A DNA stretch of 63,043 nt, the filler included, from Lophium mytilinum (Eukaryota): NCBI GenBank assembly GCA_010093605.1. It is 4 parts of 3 records of this genome, joined end to end, with 100 filler letters (N's around TTAATTAATTAA, not from the genome) between each part and the next. Parts side by side here need not be neighbours in the genome. Positions count along the whole stretch, not along the records: positions 19,633 to 41,100 come from MU004185.1; 3 more parts are not named here. One strand, 5' to 3'. A program made the translations under genes and the position numbers. Below are positions 27,901-49,206 of the stretch, in pieces (position 1 is the stretch's first letter; every line of letters begins with the position of its first letter). The notes under the pieces were generated by a model, which was given only the letters and a program-made list of their open reading frames with translations, ran no database searches and was not told where the DNA came from.

Positions 27901-30702
27901 CAGTACGTGCGGAATTATAGATGCTTATCTCTTAGTTCTATAAAAGATATATAAGCAGGCATATTAGTAATGCCTATATATAGCGGGGTTCTACTATAGA
28001 GCATAGTAAAGTCTAAGTAAAGCTATAACGCAGTTAGGTGGAGGTTTACTTAGTTGCTTTTAATAAGCTAGCACTTGTCTATAAATTGGACGTTAAAACA
28101 GCCACTTAAGAGACCGGGCTAGGTGGAGCTTAGGCGATATTTAACCTAATTCTTTAGCTTAGTAAGATTATTGTTGCTATACTACTTTAATGCGGGCTAG
28201 GGACCGTGCCAACCGGCCATTACCTAATAGCTGGCAATTACGATGCTCTTAGTATTTACCTTATTTTTAGTATTAAATAAGGGATGGTCCCTGGTTAAGG
28301 TGTTATATAGAAACGTAGCGCTATAGAAAGCAACTTAGCCCTTTAATAAATAGATGTAGAGCTTAAGTTTAGAACTAAACTTTGCAAGTTTATTCGCTAT
28401 TTAGTGTACTAAAACGGAAGGCACAAGAAAAAGGAAGGGCTTCGCCGGCCCGGGGTCTTTCTTATCTATAACTTTGCGCTGGCGCTTAGTAATAAGCTAT
28501 AATTAAATTAGTAGATGCTAAGAGAAACTATTAGGGGGGTAGTAGAAAGGCTTTCTATTAATACTCTTTAAAGAGAAATTGCTTACATATCTAATAAGGG
28601 TAGCCATTAAAAATATCTTTCTAATACTAACCTTATCTATAATTAAAGCCCTACTAAGAAAGCCTTTCTATATAATATAGTATATATAGTAAGCCCTAGT
28701 AATCTACTACCACCTTAAGTAAATATTGCCATTTATTATAATAAGGCGGGGTTTCTAATAGTTATAAATGCGTAGGGCCTTTATTACTTCTTTTAGGTTA
28801 TCTAGCTAATAGGCTTTATTAGTTATTAGAAGGCGGAGTATACTCTATATTGTAAGATCTACCGCGGTTAGTATAGTAAAGGGGATAATATTCTTTACAT
28901 TAATAGCGGTAGCCCTTATATTAGCCTCCATATCTTAGGCATGTTTAATACTGTCTAGATTAGCATACTTGTCCTTATTTAGATCTACAGCGCGCATATT
29001 TAGGTGCTATTTAACGGTATATATAAAATCTCCTGCTATCTATCTAATTACCCGATATGCGTTGTATTAAAACTTTAACGAGTTCTAGTTAATTATTGCT
29101 CCGGTGCGCTTAGCATGCATAATTACTAACTTAAGCTCCTGTTTTATAGTGCCGGTGATGTACTTAGCACTAGTAATATTAACGTTGCCTTTCTTCTTAT
29201 TAACTAGGTTTGCAGCAATTTCCTCTTTAGATAACCCCTAGATAGGGTTGTCTGCGTTAACCTCTATATTAATGGCCGCGAGTTCCTCCTTAGTAAAATA
29301 AGAGGGCAACTGCCGACAGGGAGGCCTAGAAGGGCCTTAACGGAAAGGCTTCCTATTAATATTCTTACTACTATAAGCAATGGTTTTGGCCGGGGTCTTA
29401 GGTGCCGGTGCTAGACTAAGCTTTATTTTTTAAAGAATATTCTATATCTTAATTTAGTTCTTAGTACAGGCGGTTCTACTAGCTTAAGACGGGCCACTCT
29501 TAAACTCTATATTTTTCTTTAATTTAAAGAAGATTCTAAGCGCTTTATTATTAGTAATATTAGCGCGGTTGTGCAAAAACCCACTAAACCGCTTCCGGTA
29601 GTAATTAAAGCATTAACTAATAAATTAAGCTGCCTAATCCACGGGTTTGTAGTTATCCGTCTTAGGCTAAGAAGTAGTATATCGCTGCAGATTATGCAAC
29701 TTGCCAGTCTTAAAAGCGTTTAGAATAGTAGTAAAACTGGCCCCTTAATCCTAACTATGCATAGCGCGCTTTAGGTCTAAATACCTATCCTTATACTTAT
29801 TCTAAATTGCTTAGAAATTAGGCTTAGCTAGAATTACTTTAAGTTCTGCTTTTATTTAACTATAAAGCTTGGCTAACTTTATTCTACTAGCATACAGCGT
29901 GTTTACTAAGGCCTATAACTTCTCTAACTCTTTATCTTTTCTAGTACTAGTAACTAGCGCTTAAAGCTTCTCCTGCTCTTTATTAGAGTTCTTAGGGATA
30001 TTAGAGTTATTACTATAGTTATCGCTATCTAGATAAACTACTTTACTATTTGCTAATGTAAGCGTCTCCGGATCTATTATAGTGGCCGGCTAATCGCGCT
30101 TTAAATTAACATGGGCATTAACCCTTAATTTAGTAACTAGTAGGGAGGTAGAATTTAGATCTTCTAGCACTTTAGAAGAAGTAGATTATTTCTTATAGCT
30201 ATCTACTAGGTTAGTTGCAGGTAATATGCGCAGGAATGCAACCTTTACTACTACTTTGCTAGGGTCCCTATTACTTAAGGTATTTATAGCTAGTCTATTA
30301 ATATGTTAGCTTATTTTAAATAATAGAAGAAAGAAGGCAGGCAAAGGGCCCTAGTAGGAAGGCTTTCTGCCAAGACCCTTTGCACTATGCCGGGTATTTT
30401 TAGTATTATTATTTTCTCGACATTTTCTACCGCCGCATCTTTAAAATTAAGGCAGACTAATCTACTAAGACTAGTAAAGGGCCCTAGCAGAAAGCCTTCC
30501 TGCAATAATTCTTATAATATACTTACCTCACTCCACTCTTAGAGAAATTGCGATGGAATAAACCTGTTAGCAGAATTAGCTATAACGTAACTTAATTTTA
30601 CCTGCTGGACAGTAAACTTACTAAAAGGCTTAACCGCTAGCTAAAAAGACGCCTAAAATAAGCTAATTGCGGCTCTAATGTAGCTAGGAAACTACTAACT
30701 AT
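24914..30702 (-). pseudogene. SNF2/SWI2-family helicase-like ATPase, 6 predicted introns, RIP-degraded
   Basis: Reverted motifs: GGALIADEVGIGKT (Walker A, ~28615-28655), KPFLFLVPSVLVHQ, FMDECQLIK (~28060-28087), YSGTP, KVIIWT, and GAGLNLQSACHNVHLFDP...EKQAIARLYRIGQ (~26755-26870). Introns GTAAG...CTAAY...YAG at 25723-25814, 26184-26271, 27675-27768, 28497-28586, 30295-30526 and 30564-30621. Confidence 0.9.
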
Positions 30703-31379
30703 TATCTAGTAAGTAAGGGTCTAGCGCGCAACTGTTCTATAGGTAGCTAGATAAGTGGAAGTAATAGGAGTGCGGTGGTGTAGAAGGAGAGGTTAGTATA
30801 GAAGTAAGAAAGTTAAAGCTGCCAGGCGGTAGATAAGTTCGTGGGCGGCCGGGCCGATAGCCGCCGGCCGCTAAGACGCTAAGCCTTTAACAGTAAACTA
30901 CTTAAGTTAACTCTTAAGGTTAACGTAATAGCTGTATATTATATAAGGTTAAAATATTGCGGGTGTAAATATATCAGCGTTTTACTTAATTTCGCCGATA
31001 TATAAATATTTACGGTTAATCTATAATACTACGCTATATATTACCTAGTTCTAGTAATATAGTACTACGCTAAGATAGGTTAATAGAACATTGCGCGTTG
31101 TTGTATAACTATTTGCCTACAGTATAAGAGTCTTGCTAGAAAGCCTTCCTGCTAGGGCCCTTTGCTACTTATATTAAGCACGCCTATTATTACCTCTCTT
31201 CTTATATATATTACCGCTACGCACCTACTAGATAAGCATTTGCGTACTATATAAGAGCCTGGCTAGAAGCCTTTCTACTAACGCCCTTTATATCTTATAC
31301 TAATTACTTTACTATCTTCCTTATTAATAATTCTTCTTTATAACGCCGCCCCTGCTAGTCTACCTATTAACGCTTAAAT

Positions 31380-34300
31380 CTATATACTCCTTAGAACTCT
31401 TCTACTTAAGCCTTATTCTTCTAGGCCTCTTACTCTAAGTCCTCTAAGTCCTCTATTTCTAAGCTGTAGTTACCTAAACTCTCTTTATACTTATACTCTT
31501 TATCTAATAACTAACTACTTATATCCCCCTCTTACTCCTTCTATATCGCTAAATAATTCTAGAATTCTTTAATTATTAGAATTCTGCCTAAATAAGCCCT
31601 TAGGCTATTTAGTGTATAGTGCTTAAACCTAAGCTGGACACGTTTTAGATTAACTTAACCCCTAGGGCCTATAATATTATCCTCTATTATTATTATCTTT
31701 AACTTTCCTGGGCTTCCCTAGGTTATATTCTATACTTCCTTTGCAACTACGTCTATGCTAAGGTTAACTGCCCCCCCTTAAGCCTGTTCTTTAATATATT
31801 AGCTTAGTTAGGCTACCTTATAGTAGTAGCTATTTAGTAGTTGCATATAGATCTACTATATATTTATAATTATATCTCTTCCCCTAATATTATCTTATAT
31901 ATCTTTAGAGTTGTTTTATTTAGCTTAACGCGTGGTTAAAATTTTGTTGTTATTATATCTTAAAAGAACCTAGAGTAATAAGGCGGCTCTTGCTTATAGA
32001 TTATTAAGGAATTATTCTACCGTTTTTAGTAACGCTTCATTTCTAATTATTGCATTTAATCTTCGCAATTTTATGCGGAAGGGACTGTTGTTCTATTTTT
32101 AAGTTTCTGCAGCTGGATCTATAATATTAAATAGCGGCTAGACTTAATTAATCCAGCGTCTAGTTAAGTGCCTTAGATAATTTGTATTACTATTTCTAGC
32201 TACATTCTACACGTAGGTGTAGCTTACTATAAGTTCTAACTTTCTATATAGCTTTATAAGCATATTAGGATAAAGCGCAACTATAGATCTATTTAGAATA
32301 CTCTTAAGAAATTAGTCGCGTAGTTCTTTACTCTTCTATTACGTCTTAGTATTTCTATCTTCTCCTATATACTATCTACTTAGAAGCTCGTATATATTAG
32401 TATAGTATGCCTTAATAATAAGCGCAGCTGCCTTACCTATCCATAGCGGTGCCAATCGCCAATCTTTTTGCACTTTAGTCCTATTTTCGCGTTAAATAGC
32501 TGGCGTGTACTATGCTGCAATACTATACTATAGATACCGCATCTCTATATTCTCCCTAGTAAGAGATACCTAAATCTAAGCTTTAGTAAACGTAGCTTAG
32601 AATTAATTCCTAAGGCCGGCTTGCAGTTAATTAACGCCTTAAGGGCTAAGTTGTGGGGGCGTTGTTGTCTAATCTAAGTACTCTAACTTTAGCTAAGCTA
32701 TGCTATACTTCTTAAGGGAGTCTAATAACCTAAGGCTATACAAGGTTACAGGATTCTAGGGGTCTTTTTAATTTATCCACTCTTTTTTCTACAGTATAGA
32801 TAATTAAGTAGGATTACCACATCTAGCAGTAATTTACGCAAGGCGGATATAAAGAGATGCTAAATAACTATTTACTAGCTATTTATCTAGTATTACTATA
32901 TGCCTAGCATTACGCCCCGGGGTAACCTAAAGAGACAGTACCTGGAAAAGAAATACCTAGCAATTAAGGTTTACAATAGTAAAGGCATTAACTTCTTCTA
33001 TAGAAAGAACCTAGTAGGGGTAATAAGGCTTACTACTATTGTCCGGCCCATCCTTTATAGTAAATTTAGGACTTGCGCTTTCTTTAAGTTGCTTAAGTAT
33101 AGTAAGAAGTACTTAGAACTTAGTTTAAACCCTATAGAATAAGTGTCTATCTCTCTAGAGTATAGTATAGTGGCGTTAGAGAATAGCAGCAAGACTATCC
33201 TAAAGCTATTTTCTTTTTAATAATTCTCTAGAGCTACCTGCCGCTTTAAACCACCGCTTAATTATTTTAGTTAAGAACGTAAGAGCTTCTAGTTAAGTAT
33301 TATAAAAGGGCGTAATATTCTTAACGGGTAACTTAAGTATAATCTTATTACTATTATAGATTTTATTATATACTATACTACTAATACAGCTATAGTTACC
33401 TACTTAGAGCTCTACTATTAGAGATAACGCGCCCTAGATAAGATAGTAGGGGTACAATGTTATATAAATCTTTTCTTTTCCGCCGTTGTAGAAGTAAGTG
33501 GCCTAGTAGTTATTATAGCTAGTTTTGCGTAGAAGGGTAACCCCGGTATCTAGCTAATTAGTAGTTAGGATATCTTTATATCTATAGTTAATCTATATCC
33601 CCTTATCTAGTATATTAATTGGGTTTTTATTAAAAGTAGTAGTTAAAGTACGTAGTAGCTAATCTCTACTTTAAATTATACTTAAGGACTTATATGCCAT
33701 TTTTAGATTATAACCCGAGACTACTAGGAATACTCCTTTAAATAAATCTTTAGGTATAGTATCTATTTCTGCAAAGTTTTCTATGTTATAAAGAACTTAG
33801 TTCTAGAATTCTTAGAGTTAACACTATAGAATTATATACTTAGTATTAATATAAGAGTCTCTAGATAATATTATATATTTTTCTTTCTTAACGCTTGCTT
33901 TACCCTATATAATATTAAAACTGTGTAGTATATGCTACTACTTATTAGGTGTTAGAGTATACTTTACTACAGGTAAGATAATATTATTGAGCTAAGCTGC
34001 TTACATTATATCTAGTAGATGCAAAGTATTGCCCTTTTGCTTATTTAGTGTTGGCATCTAGGGGAAAAACACGTAAGTTTTAAATTAATGCTTATACCTG
34101 TGCCCTATGCAAAGCTACTTTATTATATAGAGCTTATGGCCGCGTATTATAATGCGTTAGTTTTAAGTAATACTTTAGAGGAAGGATAGTTATAGAGATA
34201 GTAAGAAGTACAAATTATAGGCCGCTAAAGTAGAGATGCCAATAATAACGCTATTAATATTATACACTCGCTGGATTTTAATCTCTTTATTTGCTATAAA

Positions 34301-36520
34301 GCTAGCTTTAGACCTTATAAAACTAAGCCTTAGAGTTTCTATATTACTAGTTTCTCCGCTTAACATTAATTTCTATAGGACATTATTAAAGTTATTAGAA
34401 TTATTCTCTCTCTATAATAGCTCTAGTTGGCTTATTAGATAGAAGGCTGTATTGGCTATAATAGGCTCTTATTAGGAGGGAAGGTTCTAAGCCAGAAGAA
34501 AGCTAGTAACTTAGCTAAGGGATCTGCTCTAAGAAACTATTATATAGTTACTTGCTATATTATAATATTAGCTACTATATTATCTAAATAGAAAGAGTTA
34601 AGATATATAGTAAGTACACTAGACTTCTAACGCTAATTAGATTATACTTACTACATATAGAGTATTTACTAATAGATTATTATGCCTACGTATATTAGCT
34701 TTATATAAACTATAGGGCTTATAATACTTGCCTATTAGGGTCTATCTTATCTATAACTTTGTCTATAATCTCGCTGTTACCTTCACTATTTAAGGCTGTA
34801 TTATCTACCCTACTGCCTTAATTCTCTAGTATAACTTCGTTAAGTAAACCCAGTAATTTATCTATAGTGTCTTGCTATCCTTGCATATATATACCTTCTC
34901 TACCCTCTTTAACTCTATTATCTAATACCTTATCTATATCTGCACCTGCTTCTATCTTATTCTTAAGTTAGGTAAATTCCTCTTCTATAACCTCGGTTAC
35001 TGGCGTTAGGCGGAGAGATAATAAGGTAGCGTACCACTCCATCTAAACCTAACCGTTGTTGTGCGCTAGTTGCATAAACCAACTTATATTAGCTAGCATT
35101 TCCTCCTTATCTATTTATTCCGCAGCGTCTATTCTAGAGAGCACTTCTACGGCCTTATTTTATTGCGCTAAGAATAATTCCGCTGTAATCTCTTTGTTAG
35201 TTATTTGCGCGAGTATATAGAGCAGTAATACAGTAATAAGGGCTAGTGTTTAGCGTTATATTATTAGTTCTAGTTATGCAGGAGTAGAAGCTACTATAGT
35301 TTATTAAGCGCGTAAACTTGCGCGTAGTATTATAGCCGTCTATAAAGTATTCTAGAGGGCAAGGATAGTATATACGCCTGTATATATATATAGTATAGCT
35401 GCGGGTTTAAGAAATACTTTGCAGAGATAGCGTATAGCGGGTAGAACCCAGCCCGGAGCTCTATTATTATTATTTACGGCTTGCCGAGGTGTCCCTACGC
35501 TGGAAGGTAGTAATAGAGAGGGCAACACCTCTCTAGTATCTAGAGGCGGTGGTAACGCAGGTGTATAAGGAGACAACGCGGAAGATATAGGTAACAGCAA
35601 CTCTAATACTGCCTCTTCTACTTCTTTATCTACTTAGGCTACTTCTTTATTTACTTTACTTTCTTTAGCTACTTCTTCTTCTTCTTTAACTGCTGCTCCC
35701 TTAATAGTCTATATAACAGCATACTTACTACTATTACTCTAATCTTACTCTATAGCTTCCGTTAATTCTATGTTGCTTTAAATTTTAGGTATATATTAGG
35801 CCGCTCTTAACTTACTAGAGCGTGTACTACTGCTAGTAGACTGCTAGGTATAAGAAAGTTATATTAGTTAAGTAGGTTAAGAGGTTAAAGGAGCGAAAGA
35901 ACAAGTACTACTATAAGTAGCCCGCCCTAGAGTAGAATATTAGGTAGGTTTAGTAGATAGAGGAGGAGCGGTAGAATAGATACTACTATAGGTAGACCGC
36001 TATAGAGAAGTATATTACGTAGATTACGTAGGTTAGATAGATAGAGGAGGAATAGTAGAACGGGTACTACTATAAGTAGACTGCTGCGGAGGAGTATATT
36101 ACGTAGATTAAGTAGAGGTAGAAGGTAATAATTCTTCTATTAAGACGGGTTCTACTTAAGTTTATTAGAACCTAACTATAAATACTAGGAGATTATAAAA
36201 GATATACTAATTATAAGTTATGCAATAGTTTCCTCTAAAGGCTCCTAAGGTGCAATTAGTTATTAAAAGGGCGTAGGCGCAGGGCGGGTGGGATAAGGGG
36301 CCCTAATATTTATACTAGAAAGACCTCTAGGGTTTTTAAAGATAATTAGAAACAGATCTAGAATAGAAGTAGGAGTAGGCTTGCTAGCCTCTCCTACTAT
36401 AGCTGTTTAGTCTATAGCCCTCTTCTTTTTATCTCTTTTACGTTGGTTCAAATCCACTATTAAACGTAATTTAGCTGCTTTTCGCTCTTCTTTATTCTAG
36501 TACTTTCGGGGGCGTCCTAT
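31380..36520 (-). pseudogene. Large protein of unknown family with N-terminal AT-hook (MGRPRKY), Pro/Ser-rich linker and acidic tail
   Basis: Start at 36520 reads M(ATA)GRPRKYQNEEERKAAK. A long continuous reverted frame at ~34200-32200 has motifs YVFFP, WLDDIILPA, QHMPHSF, SGHDLK, WIDYGYED, TLLRK, YNKIYN, PFHNTQLEAL and GLGL..SLKKYGMAW. Confidence 0.6.
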
Positions 36521-36799
36521 ACTAACTACTAGGTATAGTAGTAAGGGGAATAATAGTTTAGAATATAGAGCTAAGGAGCGGAAAGCGGTTAGGGAGTGTA
36601 ATTAGTTAAAAATAAGGATTTATTAATATTCTTATTATAGGGCTTACCCCGCCTAACCCGTTTTAACACCCCTTACAGATACGGCCACTCGGTTAAGGTC
36701 GCTGGGGAAGGGCCCTAGTAGAAAGGCTTTCTGCGGTAGCCCTATTAATTGCTTTATCTATAAACGTTGTATAAACTATATCCTGCCCTTTACTTTATA

Positions 36800-37715
36800 T
36801 ATTTTATTTAATGCGGCTGAAATTTCTATTATATAAGAATACTATCTAGTAGCAACCTATACTAAGGCGAGGCTATTATAACGCAAAACCCTTTCTATTA
36901 TATCTATTACCCTCTATAGGCACCTACTACTAGGACTTCGCCTTTTCTATAATGCTTTAAATTTAATTGCGTATACTGCATATAGTATTATAGCTCTATT
37001 ATAGTATCTTAATATCTAGGAGTTATTATATGCAGCGGTAGAAAGGCTGCTTAATTATAGGGCTATACTCTCTGCTGCTAGCTACCCTCTTCTCTTACCC
37101 TCTACACCTACCTAGAGCCATAACTACAGCCTATAAAATATTTCTAAATTGCTAGAATACTATTGCATTGCATAATAAGTAATTTTCCTTATAAATATCT
37201 TTAACCTTATATTGTAGTGGTTCTATGCAGCGCTAGTTAAGGTCTTTATTAAGTGCAAGGCTGGCATTACGCTAAACTCTTTAAGTAACTTCTATTATTT
37301 AGAATCTTACCTCTGCATATAACTGCCACTACTACTATAGCCTGCATATTAATTCTAAGTTAATAGATTACTATCGCATTATATATTATATATAATTCTT
37401 TATATATTTCTTCTATGCTATATTATAGTAGTTGCATGCAGTAGTAGTTACACTAATTCTTAAGCACAAGGCTATTCTTACGCTAAACCCTTTAAGTAAT
37501 TTCCATTCTATGCCTGCGCACCCTGCGGCCTCTCTATATCTACCTTAAGCTACTACTACGGCTTGTAAATTAAATTAAAGTTAATAGAACGCTATTATAT
37601 TGCGTTCTAAGTATTATTCTTCGCATGCATACTCTATTTCATGTTATGGTGGTTAAATGCGGCGGTGCAAGGTTATGCTGCACGTAATTCTTAAAGGTTA
37701 ATTTTCTCTATATTA
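36800..37715 (-). pseudogene. Probable gene built from ~200-bp internal repeats, unknown function
   Basis: Three to four diverged units begin GCA..AAC(C/T)AC on the minus strand, and two share a WKLLKxFSV-like segment. The frame is uncertain. Confidence 0.35.
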
Positions 37716-37759
37716 AACTCGCTTCTCCCTACCTAACTTTAACCCTCTAGCCCCTATAA

Positions 37760-37771
37760 TAACCCTAACCC
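37760..37771 (+). repeat. Two telomeric repeats (TAACCC)2 at the junction between element copies
   Basis: Absent from the homologous positions on either side (37300-37310 and after 38220). Confidence 0.8.
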
Positions 37772-38220
37772 TTTATATATAACTACTACTACTACTATAG
37801 CCTATATATTAATTCTAAGTTAATAGATTACTATTATATTATATATTATATATAATCCTTTATATATTTCTTCTATACTATATTATAGTAGTTGCATGCA
37901 GTAGTAGTTATACTAATTCTTAAGCGCGAGGCTATTCTTACGCTAAACCCTTTAAGTAATTTCTATTCTATGCCTGCGCACTCTATAGCCTCTCTATATC
38001 TACCTTAAGCCACCACTACGGCTTATAAATTAAATTAAAGTTAATAGAACGCTATTATATTATATTCTAAGCATTATTCTTTGCATGCATACTCTATTTC
38101 ACGTTATAGTAGTTAAATGCAGCAGTGTAAGGTTATACTGCACGCAATTCTTAAAGGTTAATTTTCTCTATATTAAACTTACTTCTCCCTATCTAACCCT
38201 AACCCTCTAGCCCCTATAAT
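37770..38220. mobile_element. Truncated tandem copy: last ~450 bp of the telomere-linked element
   Basis: Direct repeat of 37310-37760 with the same end, CCCTCTAGCCCCTATAAT. Confidence 0.92.
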
Positions 38221-41100
38221 AGTAGGAAGCCTTTCTATAATAATTCTTATAATACGCTTACCTTACTCTACTCTTAGAGAAATTATAATAGAATAAACCT
38301 ATTAGTAGAATTAGCTATAATATAACTTAATTTTACCTGCTAGATAGTAAACTTACTAAAAGGCTTAACTACTAGCTAAAAAGACGCCTAAAATAGGCTA
38401 ATTGCGGCTCTAATATAGCTAGAAAGCTGCTAACTATTATCTAGTAAGTAAGAAACTAGCGCGTAACTATTCTATAGGTAGCTAGATAAATAGAAGTAAT
38501 AGGGGTGCGGTAGTATAGAAGGAGAAGTTAGTATAAAAGTAAGAAAGTTAAAGCTACTAGGCGGTAGATAAGTTTATAGGCGGCCGGGCTAATAGCCGCC
38601 GGCTACTAAGACGCTAAGCCTTTAATAGTAAACTACTTAAGTTAACTCTTAAAATTAATATAATAGCTATATATTATATAAGGTTAAAATATCGCGGGTA
38701 TAAATATATTAGTGTTTTACTTAATTTTACTAATATATAAATATTTATAGTTAATCTATAATACTACGCTATATATTACCTAGTTCTAGTAATATAGTAC
38801 TGCGCTAAGATAGGTTAATAGAATATTGCGCGTTATTATATAACTATTTACCTATAGTATAAGGGTCTTACTAGAAAGCCTTTCTACTAGAGCCCTTTAC
38901 TACTTATATTAAGTATATCTATTATTACCTCTCTTCTTATATATATTACTGCTATATATTTACTAGATAAGTATTTACGTACTATATAAGAGCCTAGCTA
39001 GAAGCCTTTCTACTAATACTTTTTATATCTTATACTAATTACTTTACTACCTTTCTTATTAATAATTCTTCTTTATAACGCCGCCTCTACTAGTCTACCT
39101 ATTAATGCTTAAATCTATATACTCCTTAAAACTCTTCTACTTAAGCCTTATTCTTCTAGGCCTTTTACTCTAAGTTCTCTAAGTCCTCTATTTCTAAGCT
39201 ATAGTTACCTAAACTCTCTTTATACTTATACTCTTTATCTAATAACTAACTATCTATATCCCCCTCTTACTCTTTCTATATTACTAAATAATTCTAGAAT
39301 TCTTTAATTATTAGAATCCTACCTAAATAAGCCCTTAGGCTATTTAGTATATAGTACTTAAACTTAAGCTAGATATATTTTAGATTAACTTAACCTCTAG
39401 GGCCTATAGTATTATCCTCTATTATTATTATCTTTAACTTTCCTGGGCTTCCCTAGATTATATTCTATACTTTCTTTGCAACTATATCTATACTAAGGTT
39501 AACTACCCCCCTTTAAGCCTATTCTTTAATATATTAGCTTAGTTAGGCTACCTTATAGTAGTAGCTATTTAGTAGTTATATATAGATCTACTATATATTT
39601 ATAATTATATCTCTTTTCCTAATATTATCTTATATATCTTTAGAGTTATTTAGTTTAGCTTAACGCGTAGTTAAAATTTTATTGTTGTTATATCTTAGAA
39701 GAACCTAGAGTAATAATACGGCTCTTACTTATAGATTATTAAGGAATTATTCTACTGTTTTTAGTAACGCTTTATTTCTAATTATTATATTTAATCTTTA
39801 TAATTTTATATAGAAGGGACTATTATTCTATTTTTAAGTTTCTATAGCTGGATTTATAATATTAAATAGCGGCTAGACTTAATTAATCTAGCGTCTAGTT
39901 AAGTATATTAGATAATTTATATTACTATTTCTAGCTATATTCTATATATAGGCATAGCTTACTATAAGTTCTAACTTTCTATATAGCTTTATAAGCATGT
40001 TAGAATAAAGTATAACTATAAATCTATTTAGAATACTCTTAAGAAATTAGTTATATAGTTCTTTACTCTTCTATTATATCTTAGTATTTTTATTTTCTTC
40101 TATATACTATCTACTTAGAAGCTTATATATATTAGTATAGTATACCTTAATAATAAGCGCAGCTACCTTACCTATCTATAGTGGTGCTAATTGCTAATCT
40201 TTTTATACTTTAGTTCTATTTTTATATTAAATAGCTAGCGTATACTATACTATAATGCTATACTATAGATACTATATCTCTATATCCTCCCTAGTAAGAG
40301 ATACTTAGATCTAAGCTTTAGTAAATATAGCTTAAAATTAATTCCTAAGGCCGGCTTATAGTTAATTAACGCCTTAAGGGCTAAGTTATAGGGGCGTTAT
40401 TATCTAATCTAAGTACTCTAACTTTAGCTAAGCTATGCTATACTTCTTAAGGGAGTCTAATAACCTAAGGCTATATAAGGTTATAGAATTCTAGGAGTCT
40501 TTTTAATTTATCTACTCTTTTTTCTATAGTATAGATAATTAAGTAGAATTACTATATCTAGCAGTAATTTACGCAAGGCGGATATAAAGAGATGCTAAAT
40601 AACTATTTACTAGCTATTTATCTAGTATTACTATATACCTAGTATTACGCCCGGGGGTAACCTAAAGAGATAGTACCTAGAAAAGAAATACCTAGTAATT
40701 AAGGTTTATAATAGTAAAGGTATTAACTTCTTTTATAGAAAGAACCTAGTAGAGGTAATAAGGCTTACTACTATTATCTGGCCTATTCTTTATAGTAAAT
40801 TTAGGACTTGCGCTTTCTTTAAGTTACTTAAGTATAGTAAGAAGTACTTAGAACTTAGTTTAAACTCTATAGAATAAGTATCTATCTCTCTAGAGTATAG
40901 TATAGTAGTGTTAGAGAATAGTAGTAAGACTATTCTAAAGCTATTTTCTTTTTAATAATCCTCTAGAGCTATCTACTGCTTTAAACTACTACTTAATTAT
41001 TTTAGTTAAGAATATAAGAGCTTCTAGTTAAGTATTATAAAAGGGCGTAATATTCTTAATAGATAACTTAAGTATAATCTTATTACTATTATAGATTTTA
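38220..41100. mobile_element. Truncated tandem copy of the telomere-linked element (matches 30485-33365), running into the contig end
   Basis: Colinear direct repeat, visibly more RIP-mutated than copy 1. Confidence 0.92.
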
Positions 41101-41200: not shown

Positions 41201-41929
41201 AAGAGGCCTAGAAGAATAAGGCTTAAGTAGAAGAGTTCTAAGGAGTATATAGATTTAAGTATTAATAGGTAGACTAGTAGGGGCGGCGTTATAAAGAAGA
41301 ATTATTAATAAGAAAGATAGTAAAGTAATTAGTATAAGATATAAAGAGCGTTAGTAGAAAGGCTTCTAGCTAGGCTCTTATATAGTACATAAATGCTTAT
41401 CTAGTAGGTGTATAGCGGTAATATATATAAGAAGAGAGGTAATAATAGGCGTACTTAATATAAGTAGTAAAGGGCCCTAGTAGGAAGACTTTCTAGCAAG
41501 ACCCTTATACTATAGGTAAATAGTTATATAATAATGCGCGATATTCTATTAACCTATCTTAGCGCAGTACTATATTACTAGAACTAGGTAATATATAGCG
41601 TAGTATTATAGATTAACCGTAAATATTTATATATTGGCGAAATTAAGTAAAATACTAATATATTTACACCTGCAATATTTTAACCTTATACAATATATAG
41701 CTATTATATTAACCTTAAGAGTTAACTTAAGTAGTTTACTATTAAAGGCTTAGCGTTTTAGCGGCCGGCGGCTATTAGCCCAGCCGCCTATAAACTTATC
41801 CGCCGCCTAGCAGCTTTAACTTCTTTACTTCTATACTAACCTCTTCTTCTATACCACCGCACCCCTATTACTTCCACTTATCTAGCTACCTGCGGAACAG
41901 TTGCGCGCTAGTTTCTTACTTGCTAGATA

Positions 41930-44900
41930 ATAGTTAGTAGCTTTCTAGCTACGTTGGAGCCGCAATTAGCTTATTTTAGGCGTCTTTTTAGCTAGCGGTT
42001 AAGCCTTTTAGTAAGTTTACTATCTAGTAGGTAAAATTAAGTTATATTATAGCTAATTCTACTAACAGGTTTATTCTATTGCAATTTCTCTAAGAGTAGA
42101 GTAAGGTAAGCGTATTATAAGAATTATTACAGGAAGGCTTCCTGCTAGGGCCCTTTACTAGTCTTAGTAGATTAGTCTGCCTTAATTTTAAAGATGCGGC
42201 GGTAGAAAATGTTAAGAAAATAATAATACTAAAAATACCCGGTATAGTGTAAAGGGTCTTAGTAGAAAGCCTTTCTACTAGGGCTCTTTATCTACCTTCT
42301 TTCTTCTATTATTTAAGATAAGCTAATATATTAATAGGCTAGCTATAAATACCTTAAGTAATAGGGACCCTAGCAAAGTAGTAGTAAAGATTACATCCCT
42401 GCGCATATTACCTGCAACTAACCTAGTAGATAGCTATAAGAAACTATCTACTTCTTCTAAAGTACTAGAAAATCTAAATTCTACCTTCCTACTAGTTACT
42501 AAATTGGGGGTTAAGGCCCATGTTAATTTAAAGCGCAATTAGCCGGCCACTATAATAGATCTAGAGACGCTTACATTAGTAAATAGTAAAGTAGTTTATC
42601 TAGATAGCGATAACTATAGTAATAACTCTAATGTCCCTAAAAACTTTAATAAAGAGCAAGAAAAGCTTTAAGCGCTAGTTACTAGCAGTAGGAAAGATAA
42701 AGAGTTAGAGAAGTTATAGGCCTTAGTAAACACGCTATATGCTAGTAGAATAAAGTTAGCTAAGCTTTATAGTTAAATAAAAGTAGAACTTAAAGTAATT
42801 CTAGCTAAGCCTAATTTCTAAGTAATTTAAAATAAGTATAAGGATAGGTATTTAGACCTAAAGCGCGCCGTATATAGTTAGAATTAAGGGGCTAGTTTTA
42901 CTACTATTCTAAACGCTTTTAAGACTAGTAAGTTGCATAATCTACAGCAATATACTACTCCTTAGCCTAAGACGGATAACTATAAACCCGTGGATTAGGT
43001 AGCTTAATTTATTAGTTAATGCTTTAATTACTACTAGAAGCGGTTTAGTAGGTTTTTATATAACTGCGCTAATGTTACTAATAATAAAGCGCTTAGAATC
43101 TTCTTTAAATTAAAGAAAAATATAGAATTTAAGAGTGGCCTATCTTAAGCTAGCAGGACTGCCTATACTAAGAACTAAATTAAGATATAGAATGTTCTTT
43201 AAAAAATAAAGCTTAGTCTAGCACTAGCACCTAAGACCCCGGCTAAAACTATTACTTATAGCAGTAAGAATATTAATAGGAAGCCTTCCCGTTAAGGCCC
43301 TTCTAGGCCTCCCTGTTAGCAGTCGCCCTCTTATTTTACTAAGGAGGAACTCGCGGCCATTAATATAGAGGTTAACGTAGATAACTCTATCTAGGGGTTA
43401 TCTAAAGAGGAAATTACTATAAACCTAGTTAATAAGGAGAAAGGTAATATTAACGTTACTAGCGCTAAGTATATTACCGGCACTATAAAATAGGAGCTTA
43501 AGTTAGTAATTATGCATGCTAAGCGCACTAGAGTAATAATTAACTAGAACTTATTAAAGTTTTAATATAACGCATATTAGGTAATTAGATAGATAGTAGA
43601 AGATTTTATACATGCTATTAAATAGCACCTAAACATGCGCGCTGCAGATCTAAATAAGGACGAGTACGCTAATCTAGATAGTATTAAACATGCCTAAGAT
43701 ATAGAGGCTAATATAAGGGCTACTGCTATTAATATAAAGGATATTATCCCCTTTACTATACTAACCGCGGTAGATCTTACAACGTAGAGTACACTCCNNN
43801 NNNNNNNNNNNNNNNNNNNNNNNNNNNNNNNNNNNNNNNNNNNNNNNNNNNNNNNNNCTTATTAGATATATAAGTAATTTCTCTTTAAAGAGTATTAATA
43901 GAAAGCCTTTCTACTACCCCCCTAATAGTTTCTCTTAGCATCTACTAATTTAATTATAGCTTATTGCTGAGCGCTAGCGCAAAGTTGCAGATAAGAAAGA
44001 CCCTAGGCCGGTAAAGCCCTTCCTTTTTCTTATACCTTCTGTTTTAGTATACTAAATAGTAAATAAACTTATAAAGTTTAGTTCTAAACTTAAGCTCTAT
44101 ATCTATTTATTAAAGGGCTAAGTTACTTTCTATAGCGCCACGTTTCTATATAACACCTTAACTAGGGACTATCCCTTATTTAATACTAAAAATGAGACGA
44201 ATACTAAGAGTATTATAATCGCCAGCTATTAGGTAATAGCTAGTTAGCACGGTCCCCAGCCCGCATTAAAGTGGTATAGCAATAACAACCTTGCTAAGCT
44301 AAAGAACTAGGTTAAATATTACCTAAGCTCTACCTAGCCTAGTCTCTTAAGTAGCTATTTTAACGTCTAATTTATAGATAAGTGCTAGCTTATTAAAAGC
44401 AACTAAGTAAATCTCTACCTAACTATGTTATAGCTTTACTTAGACTTTACTATACTCTATAGTAGGACCCTACTATATATAGGCATTACTAATATGCCTG
44501 CTTATATATCTTTTATAGAACTAAGAGATAAGCATCTATAATTCCGCACGTACCGCTTAAAACCTAGTAAAGCTAAGTTTATTCTAGGTACTAATAATCC
44601 ATTTAAGCTTCCTAATAACTATTTAGGTATAATTTTCTAGTATACACGCAAGGCTTTTAAAAATTTTATTCTATCTTTATTTAACCTGTAAGTTATTATA
44701 TAAAGGGCCCTAGTAGAAAGGCTTCTAGCTAGGGCCCTTATCTCTCCTCTTATTTACTTTAATTTTCTAACATTTCTCTAGAATTATATAGGGGCTTTAT
44801 TTACGCTTAATTTTTAGCAAGTATATAATTACTTACTTATACCCTTCTATATGCCTAAATAATTCTACTAATCCTGCCACCCGAATTAGAGGATTACTTC

Positions 44901-47560
44901 TGCGGTTAGTTATGCAAGTAATTAAGCTATAGCCTATAAAACTAGGCTATATTATCTATGCTAATAAATCGCTAAGCTACCTTAAGTTATTAATAGTTTC
45001 TACTAAGAACCGCGTAGGCTAGCGCACCTATGCATTTAACGCATGCTCCGTGCGTGCTCTTAACCTTATAAGTACTACGCCATTTTTAGTCTACTCTAAG
45101 CGCGCTATAATAGCATATCCGTAAGAGAAGGTCTTAGATTTAGAGGGTAATAAGATTAAAAACGGCCCGAAAATTATCCCTCTTAAGAATAATGGCGGTT
45201 ACTAGTTAAAGGAAATAGACATTTTGCAAGGTATAATAAAGTAAATTGCCTAGAATAAGGACGTCTAAACTAACCCTAATTAGAAAGACTTTAAAGTAAA
45301 GTCCGCACCCTTTTATTATATTATTACCCTTTTTATCCGTAATGCCCCTAAAGTAGCTGCACTACTATACTATTTAGCTAATAACGTTATTAAGCGTATA
45401 GAGAAGGTTATTATCTAGACTAACTACCTAGATAAGTAAATAATTCTTGCTAAGATTATTAACTATTATAAAATAGATGCTTATATACTAGCCTCTAATC
45501 TCTCTACTACTAACCGGGACAACCTTATCTTATTATTTAATAACCCTAACTCTAAAGTAAAGATCCTTATTACTAGTTACTAGGCTAATAGAGCTAGGCT
45601 TAATCTATAGTCTACTTATTATAATATATATCTTTTTAACCCTGCAGGCTCTATTTAGATTAAGAAGCAGGCAATAGCGCATTTATATAGAATTAGCTAG
45701 AAGTTTACTATTATAGTAACCGCGTTCTTTATCTAGGATACATTTAATACCTTTACTCTCTCGCGCTAGGTGTAGATAGCGCTTTCCGGTCTTACTACTG
45801 CGTTAAATACTAACTAGATTAAGGTAGAGGGGACCTCTAAGGAAAAGCTAACCCTAGATAGCTAGTATATATAGGTAACCTATAATAATAAGAGTATTAT
45901 ACCCCGCCTTATTATAGGCGAAATAGATATTTTAAATATGCTAGTAGAATTATATATTAAGCGCTTTAACTCCCTATAAGATATTCTTATATTTTTAATA
46001 ACCCTTATGCAAGGCAATATAACTTTTTAGTCTAGTAGGTTTAGTAATAAGTTTTAAGAAGAATAAGTATATAAATTTACTAAATTGGAATTAGAAGAAG
46101 AGTAGAAGAAGGGTATAAGTAGAGCGCCTAAGAAACCGCGTATTAATAAGCTAGGTTTAAGGCTTAAGTGTTATCCTGCAAGTAGTAAGTTCGCCCTTAT
46201 AGGTTCTAGCGGGAAGGCTTCCTGCTAGGGCCCTACTTACCTTTTTATACTTTACTAATCCGTGTTTTATAGTAAAAGCCACCCTAAAGCCGAAGCTAAA
46301 GACGCTAGAGTAATAAAATAGTAAAGCTTTAAAGTAGAAGCGTAAAGCTAGTGCTGCACTAGCAGCTGCTATTAAGAAGTATAAGCCTAACCCTAAGTCT
46401 ACTATTATAGTTAAAGACTTAGATTCTACTAAATCTAATATGCCTACCCCTATAAAGAGCGCTACTAGAAAGGCTTATGCCCCTTTTATCTATTAATATA
46501 GGCCGGAGCGTAACTCTTTATATTAAGTACCCGCTATTTTTAGTAATATAGACGGCAACAACTCTTTTAGTAGACTAAATAGTAATAACTCTAAAGGTAA
46601 AGAGTATAAGGATAATACTTTATTCCTTATAAAGTATATAGGTAAGAATTTATCCTAGGGCCTTTTTAGGAAGCCTTTCTACTAGGGCCCTTTAGTATTA
46701 CCTATTATATTACTTAAGTGCTAACTATTATAGTAGCTTCTACTTCTGCCCGTTAACCTACTTTAACTCTACCTTCTAGCCCTCTTAGTACCTTTAATAG
46801 ACGCCTTATTAGGACCCCTTCTATAAACCCCGTCCCGTCGCCTAATATATAGAAGAAGAGGCAGCGTAAAATATCTACTATCTTCTTATAGAATTCTATA
46901 GATAATCTAGTTTTTTATTTACTACTAAAAGCCAACATTAATATAGATAATAACTAGACTAAGAGTAATAAGTAGAATAAGAAGAATATTAAAACCCCCG
47001 ATGTTAATATAGAGAATATCCCGTTTAAGACTAATAAGTAAAATAGGGGGTATCTTAATAATTACCTAGATTTTAATGCTACGCTATCTAAAGTTACCTT
47101 TAAGCATAATAGTAACTATAGTAGTAACTTAAACGACCCGCTAGAATTTATGGAAGAGGCCTTATAGCTAACCTTAAAGACTATATCCTCTAGTAATACT
47201 AATAAGGGTTAGAAGCGCTAAGGCGCAAAAAAGAAGCCCACTATAAAGAAGGATAAAGCGGCTAAGAAAGACTCTATATCTAAATCCCTTATATATTATC
47301 TATATAAGTATATAATAGAGAAAGAGATTACTAAGTAGCGCCCTTAGCGCGAAAGAAAGGCTACTAAGAAGAAAGCTGCCGCGTAGAAGTCTATAAACTC
47401 TACTAGACTAAAAATAGACCTATATAGGCGGAAGAATAATTCTAATATTAGCTAACCGCCCGCGGTATTAGGTGTAGATACTAACCCTAATAGTAAAGAG
47501 GATAGTAGTAAATTAGAGGGGACTAGTATAGCGCTAGAGAAGTCTAATAGTAAGGTATAA
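41930..47560 (+). pseudogene. SNF2-family ATPase, second copy (Walker A falls in the 43798-43857 gap)
   Basis: Same motifs on +: KPFLFL (~44014), DECQLIK (~44377), GLNLQ...RLYRIGQ (~45596-45700). Introns at 42011-42068, 42106-42337, 43870-43959, 44688-44781, 46185-46272 and 46642-46733. Confidence 0.88.
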
Positions 47561-49206
47561 CTAGTAGGGTCTTTATAGAAAGGCTTTCTATAGAGGCCCT
47601 TACCCTACTTTTTAGATTTAGTTTAGTATCTCTTAATATCTTTTTCTTTTTCTTTCTAACGGTTCTAATTAGGACTACTTTTCTTACTATTAGTTTGCAC
47701 CTACTTACTTAGTACTGCTAACTTTTTACTATTCTAATTTCTTACTTGCGTTCTATCCTCTACCCCCTAATAGTTAGTACTACTCTATAGTAGTAGTATA
47801 CTTTATACCCTTAAAATCTTCTAGTTTATATTTAGCCTCTAGATAGCGGCTTGCTTAACTATAGAATATAGCGTAATATTTACTACTATAACTATGCCTT
47901 GTATATCTTATGCGTAATATAATATTTATTTTATTTATCTATATTATAGGGGGCGGTCTTATCTACCGTAGTTTATATAGTTAGGGAGGGTAATTACATT
48001 TTAATACTACTCTATTATATCTGCACTATTAGTATATGCTCCCTATCTTTTTTACAGTAAAGAATCTGCTATTATATACCCTATAATTTAACCCTCTTTA
48101 CTAATATTAGTTATACGGCTAGGCCAAGTCCTCTCTATAGACCCCATTTATTAACACGCTATATATAACTTTATTCTATCTATAGTTCCCTAAAGTATAT
48201 ATTATTATATAATGCCTAAACTAACTAGAAGAAGAGTTATTTATATATATTATTATTAAGTCTTCTATATACTAGGTAGTAGAAGGTAATTTAGGTGTTG
48301 CAGTTATACTTTCTAGTTTATTGGCGATGTATTTAGACCTGCTTATTATTAGTAAGGATAGTAATTCTTAAGGGGTTACAGTCTTACCGTTTATTACTTT
48401 TAATATAACTTTCCTTCTTCTTATAGTTATAAATAGTCTCTATATTATAAATAAAACTACTCTTTTATTCTAGTATTTTCCTTTACTTCTATTCTTATAG
48501 CTATCTTAATAAGCGCTTTAGCTATATAAGCTTTCTCCTTGCAACTAAATCTAGGGTAGCATTTATAACCTTGCGCCTAGACAGGGTATTAGGCGTAGTA
48601 AGGGGAGAAGCTAACTGCTCTATTAGGATATACGTATTAGGTAGACGTGGATATATCTGCCCCTGCTAAACGTTATCCTTAGCGTTTAGAGTTGCTGTGC
48701 TACTGCACGTTAACCTTAGTATACCGGGCTATATTTTATATACTTTAGCCTAGTTTAGAGTTGCAGCCGTCTCTATATTAGGTTAGGCCGCTTCTTATCT
48801 TATAAATATCCACCAGAACGCTCTAGAAAGAATATATATAGTATACTAATTAAAACTTACATATAGTATTATACGTAGGCTGCTACTATACTATAAGGGG
48901 TAGGTAGTAGTTAGAAAAAGGTTTAATGCGCTAGTTTCTATTAATCTTAGTATATTACGTGCTAACCTCTTATATTCTACCTATACTTATAATTAACCTT
49001 TAGAGGTTAACTCTATATACTATATATAAATAGCAGCTTTAAGAGTTTTATTTTATTACTATACTATATATATATTTTACCTTAGGCGGGACTAGTAGGT
49101 CCCTATAATATACAGTTTATGTAACTATACTCTACGTTACTTTAGCGCCCGCCCGATTTACTCTTCCTCTTTTTTCTTACTTCTTTAGCTTATTCCTCTC
49201 TACACT

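What the first reader, a model, noticed from the sequence alone, without database searches (positions are those of the whole stretch)
37700..38260. Head-to-tail array with a fixed inner end, variable outer truncation and telomere repeats at a junction
Seen: two units end at the same sequence ...TAACCCTCTAGCCCCTATAAT (37760 and 38220). The units that follow start at different internal points (equivalent to 37310 and 30485), and (TAACCC)2 sits at the first junction with CCT microhomology. Inference: older copies were broken or eroded from the chromosome-end side, one was healed by telomerase, and a new element was then added by its defined end. This resembles Y', MoTeR or Terminon arrays. The defined end itself carries telomere-like CTAACCCTAACCC, which could pair with a G-rich overhang.
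Basis: partly seen in the sequence, partly recalled or inferred. Interest (0 to 1): 0.8.

Follow-up and report, generated by a model that had tools for sequence, protein, structure and literature searches.

The report
Telomere-end array of SNF2-bearing fungal repeat
At a real chromosome end of a fungus, copies of a dead 18-kb repeat carrying a helicase gene are stacked head to tail, the inner copies cut short on the telomere side, which records repeated loss and re-capping of the end; how the new copies were added is still open.

Summary
The window is four small records joined by N spacers. Record 2 (19633-41100) begins with (CCCTAA)15, so it is a true chromosome end.

An about 18-kb unit (A, 19728-37760) ends at ...TAACCCTCTAGCCCCTATAAT. 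Then come TAACCCTAACCC, a 451-nt copy of the unit's last part (B, 37770-38220) with the same end, and directly a third copy (C) that starts at the equivalent of 30485. A contig of another organism joins the homologous end to yet another internal point (33737).

All copies are wrecked by RIP (fungal repeat-induced point mutation). The inner copies are the more mutated, which fits outward growth of the array.

The only recognisable gene is an SNF2-family helicase, and it points towards the telomere. I found no reverse transcriptase, hammerhead ribozyme or oligo(A).

I therefore read it as a Y'-like subtelomeric helicase unit that was re-added after end loss, most likely as DNA (0.45). Terminal retrotransposition of the Penelope/Terminon/HeT-A kind is the main rival (0.3).

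Earlier notes of this scan describe an SNF2/palindrome repeat in the same genome, and a telomere-joined LINE array in another genome.

The parts
19633..19727 (+). Terminal telomere array (AACCCT)15.8 at the first base of record 2; the chromosome end is on the left
   Evidence: N-TTAATTAATTAA-N spacers between records
19749..20110 (+). 60-nt tandem array (about 5-6 copies) next to the telomere; outer end of unit A
   Evidence: (D5)
19728..37760 (+). Unit A, the outermost and longest copy (about 18.0 kb), RIP-mutated, no ORF of 120 aa or more
26600..29876 (-). Remnant of an SNF2-family helicase gene transcribed towards the telomere. Family-specific N-terminal region 29876-28539, SNF2 N-lobe 28976-27700, Helicase_C 27136-26600, with a frame change near 27700 next to a palindrome motif
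30479..30500 (+). One of 15 matches in the window to the palindrome-type motif GGGCCCTAGNAGGAAGGCTTTC; copy C starts inside its equivalent
36857..37760 (+). Four degenerate ~215-nt subrepeats (W, X, Y, Z) forming the inner end of the unit
37733..37745 (+). Telomere-like motif, RIP-altered in A (CTAACTTTAACCC), 15 nt inside the end
37740..37760 (+). Fixed inner end of A (TAACCCTCTAGCCCCTATAAT)
37760..37771 (+). Junction 1: TAACCCTAACCC, two telomere repeats in the same orientation as the terminal array; the last CC(T) is shared with B
37770..38220 (+). Unit B, 451 nt, equals the last two subrepeats (A 37310-37760); 41 transitions and 0 transversions against A
38193..38205 (+). Intact telomere-like motif CTAACCCTAACCC in B
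38200..38222 (+). Fixed inner end of B and junction 2 (...CCCCTATAAT|AGTAGG...), no telomere repeat, TA overlap
38220..41100 (+). Unit C, equals A 30485-33365 (91%), runs off the record; the most RIP-mutated copy
41201..52180 (-). Record 3: a separate record holding another copy of the unit (equals A 20294-31431, about 92%), with the SNF2 remnant at 43984-45856 on its + strand

Best explanation
The stretch holds the two inner junctions of a chromosome-end array of a large (about 18 kb), RIP-inactivated subtelomeric unit. The unit carries an SNF2-family helicase gene pointing to the telomere, which makes it a functional analogue of yeast Y' and of fungal telomere-linked-helicase regions. The array grew outward. 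A copy at the end lost its telomere-side part by erosion or breakage (C back to the equivalent of 30485, inside a palindrome; B back to 451 nt). At least once the stump was healed by telomerase (two repeats and a CCT overlap remain). A complete unit with its own telomere was then placed outside it, always joined by the same inner boundary ...CCCCTATAAT. I think the new units were most likely added as DNA. They would have been copied or captured from another chromosome end by break-induced / telomere-attrition-induced replication, or by end joining at the short interstitial telomere tract that flanks the unit's inner boundary, as in Y' amplification and in Pyricularia arrays after telomere failure. 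RIP in later sexual cycles then killed all copies. Shown: the anatomy, the telomere, the RIP pattern, the gene and its direction. Inferred: the order of events and the DNA route.
For: Real chromosome end: (AACCCT)15.8 at the first base of record 2. Array anatomy. Telomere vestige at junction 1, in the orientation of the terminal array. RIP: 868 transitions against 13 transversions between A and record 3. Order of events: A keeps C/G at 232 sites where C has T/A, against 23 the other way. For A against B the figures are 31 against 10, and for A against record 3 they are 646 against 222. The inner copies are therefore the more mutated. Gene content and direction: HMMER with the stop-read-through minus-strand frame gave 17 proteins at E up to 1e-3 (best 1.7e-35). 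Of the 10 I scanned with Pfam, 6 matched the SNF2-related domain at E up to 0.01 (4 of them above Pfam's own cut-off) and 2 of these 6 also Helicase_C. tblastn places the N-lobe at 28976-27700 and Helicase_C at 27136-26600 on the minus strand, and the same in record 3. Motif I and motif V/VI remnants are readable. No RT-type Pfam family in any of the six frames of 19725-37763, no PDB relative in the + frames of 33001-37300, no hammerhead ribozyme at E up to 1. No oligo(A) at the two junctions read in the window, nor in the letters reported between the two sides of organism B's joint. Precedent read in PMC8381367 (section 27 and passages). A compromised telomere invades an interstitial telomere tract and copies the distal sequence, giving tandem arrays. 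A 4-kb subtelomeric repeat occurs with 'variously truncated copies' bounded by interstitial telomeres. PMC4522978 (passage) states that Y' elements carry a helicase and are amplified when telomere replication fails.
Against: Two of the three junctions seen have no telomere repeat at all, yet use the same end to within 1 nt (junction 2; the contig of organism B). Copying primed from an interstitial telomere tract predicts a tract at each junction. A microhomology-primed event has no reason to start at that nucleotide. A precise end joined to unrelated stumps is the classical mark of a discrete molecule end, such as the 3' end of an RNA template. The telomere-like motif lies at the inner end in C-strand orientation, pointing away from the telomere, the same geometry as reported for telomeric Penelope-like elements of Zymoseptoria (PMC4522978, passage). 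The absence of an RT is weak evidence, because RIP is so heavy that the SNF2 domain itself reached only 12.5 bits in Pfam. A stump inside a repeated unit should normally be repaired by homologous copying, which leaves no new junction.
Confidence: 0.45

Rival explanations
1. Terminal retrotransposition. The unit, or at least its inner part, is a telomere-attaching retroelement of the endonuclease-deficient Penelope/Coprina-Terminon or HeT-A kind. A + strand RNA ending at ...CCCCUAUAAU is reverse transcribed from the 3' end of an eroded or freshly healed chromosome end. This gives a fixed inner (3') end, outer (5') truncations and head-to-tail arrays. The RT is either destroyed beyond recognition or supplied in trans, and the SNF2 gene is cargo or a nested insertion in antisense.
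For: The same end to within 1 nt is joined to three different sequences, two without telomere repeats. A C-strand telomere-like motif near the end points away from the telomere. There is a 451-nt stump capped by two telomere repeats. There is a 60-nt VNTR at the outer end, as upstream of FoTeRs (PMC12857005, abstract). Telomeric Penelope-like elements are known in Dothideomycetes: Zymoseptoria family 4 (PMC4522978), RPP-Circe of Leptosphaeria (PMC3105345) and Coprina-1_Alen of Ascochyta (PMC13159263), passages read in each. Terminons are giant, mostly 5'-truncated by telomere repeats, and arrayed (PMC6431247, passage). The related SNF2 gene sits in a different many-copy repeat in a metagenome, so it could be a passenger.
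Against: No RT in six frames. No hammerhead ribozyme, though Terminons and telomeric PLEs place their repeats just behind one. No oligo(A). The only gene established runs antisense to the required RNA. The telomere-like motif is not at the very end but 15 nt inside.
Confidence: 0.3
2. cDNA capture of a telomere-directed transcript. A minus-strand (gene-sense, TERRA-like) RNA starts at the fixed end and runs into the telomere repeats. An RT supplied in trans copies it, and the linear cDNA, with telomere repeats at one end and the transcription start at the other, is joined to an eroded end. This is as I recall for Ty1-mediated Y' mobilisation in yeast (recalled, no paper seen here).
For: It reconciles a precise end with genes pointing to the telomere, and with junctions that lack telomere repeats.
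Against: The SNF2 remnant changes frame next to a palindrome motif near 27700 in both A and record 3. That looks like a retained intron and argues against a spliced RNA intermediate. No transcript data are available (one search listed no RNA holder). This reading is purely inferential.
Confidence: 0.08
3. Nothing end-specific. Junction 1 is an in-register expansion of the ~215-nt subrepeat array of one unit, and junction 2 an ordinary deletion or segmental rearrangement (or a mis-assembly) in a repeat-rich, RIP-mutated region that happens to lie near a telomere.
For: B is exactly two subrepeats long, so 37310 is in phase with the array. The 17-mer TAACCCTAACCCTCTAG also occurs in an unrelated repeat, record 4 at 55196-55212, and RIP-altered in record 1. 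The records are short draft pieces, and no bridging read evidence could be obtained.
Against: X and Z are only about 60% alike, so homologous unequal exchange is unlikely, and it would not create a perfect (TAACCC)2. B differs from A by 41 RIP-type transitions, so it is not a collapsed or duplicated assembly of one copy. An independent contig of another organism shows the homologous end joined to a different internal point. All truncations face the telomere.
Confidence: 0.12

Closest known systems
Y' elements of Saccharomyces cerevisiae
   Same: Lies directly inside the terminal repeats, arrayed head to tail, with a short telomere tract between units (junction 1). It carries a large helicase gene, transcribed towards the telomere (the direction in Y' is recalled). 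Y' elements are amplified when telomere replication fails (PMC4522978, passage).
   Different: The helicase here is SNF2-type, and no sequence relation to Y'-Help1 was tested. The unit is about 18 kb against about 5-7 kb (recalled). The inner copies are truncated at different points and two junctions lack telomere repeats. All copies are RIP-dead.
Subtelomeric tandem arrays made by telomere attrition-induced replication in Pyricularia oryzae (PMC8381367)
   Same: Units bounded by interstitial telomere tracts, with variously truncated copies, at chromosome ends. A vestigial telomere is internalised when a new distal copy is added.
   Different: There every copy is said to be separated by a telomere tract. 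Here that holds for 1 of 2 junctions, and for 0 of 1 in the other organism. The repeated unit there is MoTeR or a 4-kb retroelement-derived repeat, not a helicase unit.
Endonuclease-deficient Penelope-like elements (Coprina, RPP-Circe, Zymoseptoria family 4) and rotifer Terminons
   Same: Telomere-only arrays, reverse-complement telomere repeats at the end that points away from the telomere, 5' truncations capped by telomere repeats, and giant size in Terminons.
   Different: No PLE reverse transcriptase and no hammerhead ribozyme were found. The only gene runs antisense. The telomere-like motif lies 15 nt inside the end.
MoTeR / FoTeR telomeric non-LTR retrotransposons
   Same: Fungal, telomere-linked, RIP-decayed copies, tandem repeats at the outer end, TAACCC repeats behind the inner (3') end.
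   Different: Those are 1.7-5 kb (recalled for MoTeR) and encode an RT. FoTeRs have 3-7 TAACCC copies behind every 3' end (PMC12857005, section 19). Here there are 2 and 0.
Telomere-linked RecQ helicase (TLH) gene families of fungi
   Same: A helicase gene family next to telomeres, duplicated among ends, of low GC.
   Different: Those are RecQ family, not SNF2. They are described as genes in duplicated subtelomeres, not as units with a precise end joined to truncated copies.

Membership tests
Y' element | Immediately internal to the terminal telomere repeats | tested here: met
   Unit A starts at 19728, right after (AACCCT)15.8
Y' element | Head-to-tail units separated by short telomere tracts | tested here: inconclusive
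   Junction 1 has (TAACCC)2, junction 2 has none
Y' element | Sequence relation to Y'-Help1 helicase | not tested
The helicase here is SNF2-type
Y' element | Whole units of fixed size classes | tested here: not met
   B is 451 nt; C starts at the equivalent of 30485
EN-deficient Penelope-like element / Terminon | PLE-type reverse transcriptase | tested here: inconclusive
   No RT family in six stop-read-through frames, and none in PDB for the + frames 33001-37300. RIP is heavy enough to hide it: SNF2 reached only 12.5 bits
EN-deficient Penelope-like element / Terminon | Hammerhead ribozyme just upstream of the terminal repeats | tested here: not met
   Rfam at E up to 1 over 19633-41100 gave only two chance-level miRNA matches. 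RIP could have destroyed it
EN-deficient Penelope-like element / Terminon | Reverse-complement telomere repeats at the 3' end, pointing away from the telomere | tested here: met
   CTAACCCTAACCC at 38193-38205 (RIP-altered at 37733-37745), but 15 nt inside the end
EN-deficient Penelope-like element / Terminon | Genes co-oriented with the element (3' end inward) | tested here: not met
   The SNF2 gene is on the minus strand, towards the telomere
MoTeR / FoTeR | RT with restriction-enzyme-like endonuclease | tested here: inconclusive
   Not found; same caveat on RIP
MoTeR / FoTeR | Several TAACCC repeats behind every 3' end | tested here: not met
   2 repeats at junction 1, none at junction 2, against 3-7 in FoTeRs (PMC12857005, section 19)
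HeT-A / TART | Oligo(A) at the inner junction | tested here: not met
   Junctions read TATAAT|AACCC and TATAAT|AGTAGG. The feature itself is recalled
Telomere-linked RecQ helicase (TLH) | RecQ-family helicase | tested here: not met
   Relatives carry SNF2-rel_dom and Helicase_C. Named relatives are SNF2 proteins of Leptosphaeria and a 'rad5,16' of Aspergillus
TAIR-type subtelomeric array (PMC8381367) | Interstitial telomere tract at each unit boundary | tested here: inconclusive
   1 of 2 junctions here; 0 of 1 in the contig of organism B
SNF2 family | SNF2 N-lobe and Helicase_C in order on one strand | tested here: met
   tblastn 28976-27700 and 27136-26600, minus strand, repeated in record 3. 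Direct Pfam hit is only sub-threshold (E 0.079)

The most novel reading that the evidence does not exclude
A filamentous ascomycete once had an 18-kb, helicase-carrying element that capped receding chromosome ends by attaching its precise terminus directly to eroded, repeat-free stumps. That would be chromosome-end healing by a mobile element of the HeT-A/Terminon type, RNA- or cDNA-mediated, working beside telomerase. Its SNF2 helicase would be its own gene, a kind of telomeric element not described so far.
Probability: 0.25. Interest if true: 0.8.

Novelty: new variant of a known kind. Interest (0 to 1): 0.5.

Why it matters
Fungal chromosome ends are known to hold RecQ helicase genes, Penelope-like elements and MoTeR/FoTeR retrotransposons. 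A large unit with an SNF2-type helicase, a nucleotide-precise inner end and a layered record of loss and re-capping would add a further solution to end maintenance. The RIP gradient gives a rare built-in clock for the order of additions. If intact relatives exist, the family would allow a direct test of whether such helicase units are passengers of recombination, as Y' is thought to be, or true end-targeting mobile elements.

Tried and rejected
The whole genome is not held, so I could not tabulate every occurrence of the terminal 21-mer.

Metagenome scan for the 21-mer: 0 matches.

Reads. Only Logan contigs of 3 runs could be laid, and they are 200-400-nt pieces. No contig bridging 37760 or 38220 was listed, and the tables were cut (7744 pieces and 172 loose ends not shown). 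The junctions are therefore neither confirmed nor contradicted. The summed word depth rises from the outer to the inner part of the unit (X1 about 270 to 2100, X2 about 150-200 to 6500). The tool states that contig depth cannot rank parts of a stretch, so I do not use this as evidence. No RNA holder was listed.

Coding content:
- Pfam on all six frames read through stops gave only a sub-threshold SNF2 hit.
- The word-based protein search found nothing for the SNF2 exon ('longer') nor for a possible upstream frame at 35810-34742 ('near').
- PDB phmmer found nothing for the SNF2 exon.
- Low stop density on the minus strand at 35663-35363 is within what about 360 bins give by chance, so I claim no second gene.
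- A C/G-restoring comparison of two copies did not reopen frames.

Look-ups of earlier findings by sequence: no look-alike.

Older subrepeat boundaries as relics of the same junction: X->Y scores about 3 sd above shuffles, largely from the shared unit start, and W->X and Y->Z about 1 sd. Not claimed.

Homology of record 4 (55100-55420) across junction 2: local score 99 against a shuffle maximum of 95, driven by one 17-mer and AT-rich runs. Left open.

The metagenome loci L001 and L002 share no DNA similarity with the window and have no exact telomere 12-mer.

Helitron, Starship and Crypton readings: no Rep, DUF3435 or tyrosine-recombinase family was seen in the Pfam scans, and the end features do not fit. 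Not pursued.
Full report
WHAT THE WINDOW IS. The 63-kb window is not one piece of chromosome. N44-TTAATTAATTAA-N44 spacers at 19533-19632, 41101-41200 and 52181-52280 split it into four records: R1 1-19532, R2 19633-41100, R3 41201-52180 and R4 52281-63043. No record holds an ORF of 130 aa or more, and GC is 19-39%. R2, which holds the finding, starts at its first base with (AACCCT)15.8 (19633-19727). That is the C-rich strand read inward, so the left end of R2 is a chromosome end, and the finding lies 18 kb inside it. An earlier AI note names the genome Lophium mytilinum (e1-7554509). I did not test that, and no whole genome is held.

- The 21-mer TAACCCTCTAGCCCCTATAAT occurs exactly twice, ending at 37760 and 38220.
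- Self-comparison and alignment give three copies of one unit in R2:
  - A: about 19728-37760.
  - B: 37770-38220, equal to A 37310-37760, 91% identical.
  - C: 38220-41100, equal to A 30485-33365, 91% identical, running off the record.
- R3 in reverse is a fourth copy, equal to A 20294-31431 at about 92%.
- Junction 1 reads ...CCCCTATAA|TAACCCTAACC(CT)|TTATATATAAC. The exact 12-mer TAACCCTAACCC at 37760-37771 has the orientation of the terminal array (17 exact matches against 0.04 expected; 14 lie in the terminal telomere, one at this junction, one in B's end motif, one in R4).
- Junction 2 reads ...CCCCTATAAT|AGTAGGAAGCC, with no telomere repeat and a TA overlap.

THE UNIT. Differences between copies are almost all transitions (A against R3: 868 transitions, 13 transversions; A against B: 41 and 0). 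This is the signature of repeat-induced point mutation (RIP). It also shows that B is a real diverged copy and not an assembly duplicate.

Six-frame Pfam scans with stops read as X gave one sub-threshold hit, SNF2-rel_dom (E 0.079, 12.5 bits, minus strand). A full HMMER search with the minus-strand frame 30263-28071 found 17 proteins at E up to 1e-3:
- Three (P0001, E 1.7e-35; P0002; P0012) cover query residues 109-569. They have no Pfam family, but they end in the SNF2 motif I (LLADxVGxGKT in their alignment).
- The other 14 cover residues about 588-731.
- I scanned 10 of the 17 with Pfam. Six matched SNF2-rel_dom at E up to 0.01, four of them above Pfam's own cut-off (P0004, P0008, P0011, P0017), and two of the six (P0008, P0017) also Helicase_C.

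tblastn places the family-specific N-terminal region at 29876-28539, the SNF2 N-lobe at 28976-27700 and Helicase_C at 27136-26600. All lie on the minus strand, and the same parts appear in R3. Remnants of motifs V and VI are readable in the frame from 27562. Named relatives are SNF2 proteins of Leptosphaeria maculans JN3 and a 'rad5,16' helicase of Aspergillus ibericus. The one gene that can be established is therefore an SNF2-family helicase transcribed towards the telomere, and the fixed end lies upstream of it.

A palindrome-type motif (GGGCCCTAGNAGGAAGGCTTTC) gives 15 matches in the window against 0 expected, two of them overlapping readings of one palindrome on opposite strands. One lies at the frame change of the SNF2 remnant near 27700. 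Copy C begins inside the equivalent of the one at 30479-30500. Earlier notes of this scan (e1-7554415, e1-7554416, e1-7585904) describe an SNF2 repeat with a 39-40-nt palindrome in its introns in this genome. My sequence look-ups found no shared stretch, so the link is by kind only.

Two metagenome contigs (L001, L002; 91% alike over 14.4 kb, also without long ORFs) carry a distant relative of the same gene inside another many-copy repeat. They share no DNA similarity with the window.

THE INNER END. The last ~900 nt of the unit are four degenerate ~215-nt subrepeats (W-Z), and B is exactly Y+Z. The point 37310 is therefore in phase with this array. Chance would give that about 3% of the time (my estimate: a 7-nt tolerance over a 215-nt period). 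I have no tested explanation for it.

B keeps an intact CTAACCCTAACCC (38193-38205). In A it is RIP-altered to CTAACTTTAACCC. This motif lies 15 nt inside the end, and the 15 nt (TCTAGCCCCTATAAT) are kept in both copies.

When Logan contigs of three runs were laid on 19730-39700 at 85% likeness, 3961 and 3759 short pieces of the two runs of organism A were laid, 950 and 928 of them 99% alike or more. The differences from the window were almost all transitions, so the family has many diverged copies. One contig of a different organism (X3, depth 4, shorter side 46 nt) runs to 37726, has 32 other letters that align loosely with the last 34 nt of the unit, and then continues at 33737. Its end (...CTACAA|TTTAAAT) falls within 1 nt of ...CTATAA|T. 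This is a single low-depth contig at below 95% likeness, so it is weak. It is nevertheless an independent third case of the same end joined to a different internal point, again without telomere repeats.

ORDER OF EVENTS. A keeps C/G at 232 sites where C has T/A, against 23 the other way (GC 0.345 against 0.272). For A against B the figures are 31 against 10, and for A against R3 they are 646 against 222. The innermost copy is the most mutated and the outermost the least. That fits units added outside older ones over several sexual cycles. RIP intensity can differ between copies within one cycle, so this is support and not proof.

MECHANISM. Shown: a real end, a precise inner boundary, losses that all face the telomere, one internalised two-repeat telomere with a 3-nt overlap, a helicase gene pointing outward, and RIP after amplification. 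Inferred: how new units were added.

The DNA route has direct precedent. In Pyricularia, a compromised telomere invades an interstitial telomere tract and copies the distal sequence, giving tandem arrays. A 4-kb subtelomeric repeat there occurs with variously truncated copies bounded by interstitial telomeres, and microhomology-mediated and end-joining repairs were also seen (PMC8381367, section 27 read whole, plus passages). Y' elements carry a helicase and are amplified when telomere replication fails (PMC4522978, passage). Junction 1 is exactly what this route predicts. The gene direction, the lack of RT, hammerhead ribozyme and oligo(A), and a probable retained intron also fit it.

Against it, two of three junctions have no telomere tract yet use the same nucleotide. 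That is what a discrete molecule end would give, such as the 3' end of an RNA template. Telomeric Penelope-like elements with telomere repeats at a 3' end pointing away from the telomere are known in Dothideomycetes (PMC4522978, PMC3105345 and PMC13159263, passages). Terminons are giant, mostly 5'-truncated by telomere repeats, and arrayed (PMC6431247, passage). RIP is heavy enough here to hide an RT.

I weigh these as follows:
- DNA-mediated, Y'-like addition: 0.45.
- Terminal retrotransposition: 0.30.
- cDNA of a telomere-directed transcript: 0.08.
- No end-specific process, or an artefact: 0.12.

WHAT IS KNOWN. I found no description of a telomere-end unit with an SNF2-type helicase in fungi. 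That statement rests on two full-text searches of which I saw listings only, plus the papers read in part above. Supplements were not opened. FoTeR (PMC12857005: abstract and section 19 read) and MoTeR differ in size, coding content and junctions. TLH families are RecQ. Facts about Y' gene direction, HeT-A oligo(A), MoTeR size and Ty1-mediated Y' mobilisation are recalled and come from no call. The scan has noted a telomere-joined array of LINE elements in another genome (e1-7551391). I did not examine it.

VERDICT. Y' is the best analogue, while membership of MoTeR, FoTeR, Terminon or TLH fails on tested features. I rate it a new variant of a known kind, dead in this genome, with interest 0.5.

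Noticed in passing
window 19533-19632, 41101-41200, 52181-52280: The window is four separate records joined by N44-TTAATTAATTAA-N44 spacers. Features must not be read across these points. There are further N gaps inside records at 4325-4334, 17531-18347, 43798-43857 and 59224-60123.
   Followed up: yes
window 36857-37760 and 37770-38220: The inner end of the unit is four degenerate ~215-nt subrepeats, and copy B is exactly the last two. The 'truncation point' 37310 is therefore in phase with the subrepeat array. This is unexplained; it may mark a preferred healing site.
   Followed up: partly
window 55196-55212 (R4) and 3099-3115 (R1): The 17-mer TAACCCTAACCCTCTAG of the unit's end also occurs in an unrelated repeat (RIP-altered in R1), followed there by different sequence. 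Weak similarity may extend across the equivalent of junction 2 (local score 99 against a shuffle maximum of 95).
   Followed up: partly
window 25766, 26223, 27730, 30346, 30479, 31139, 36710, 38874 and eight positions in R3: The palindrome-type motif GGGCCCTAGNAGGAAGGCTTTC gives 15 matches against 0 expected, two of them overlapping readings of one palindrome on opposite strands. One lies at a frame change of the SNF2 remnant and one at the start of copy C. It resembles the palindrome family described in earlier notes on this genome.
   Followed up: partly
window 1-19532 (R1) and 52281-63043 (R4): R1 and R4 are about 93% identical RIP-mutated copies of another repeat. R1 has an extra ~8.9-kb segment (4335-13274) flanked by short direct repeats (3566-4275 = 4335-5044; 5046-5209 = 13111-13274).
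   Followed up: no
window 5942-6158: GC-rich 17-nt tandem array (9 copies, TTCACAGGCCGCCATAG) inside the extra segment of R1.
   Followed up: no
window 19728-19750 and 19749-20110: A GC-rich, apparently un-RIPed 23 nt (CCCCGTGCTAGCGGGCGGCCAAC) sits directly behind the telomere, followed by a 60-nt tandem array. It may be the defined outer end of the unit.
   Followed up: no
window 35939-36115: 84-nt tandem repeat (2.1 copies, 82%) inside the unit, upstream of the SNF2 gene on the minus strand.
   Followed up: no
L001 1-14376 and L002 1008-15354: Two metagenome contigs are 91% identical copies of a large repeat without long ORFs. It carries a distant relative of the same SNF2 gene (L001 about 8895-12146) and an internal 2.08-kb direct repeat (L001 2786-4843 and 5256-7330). 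The SNF2 gene therefore seems to travel with large repeats in other fungi too.
   Followed up: partly
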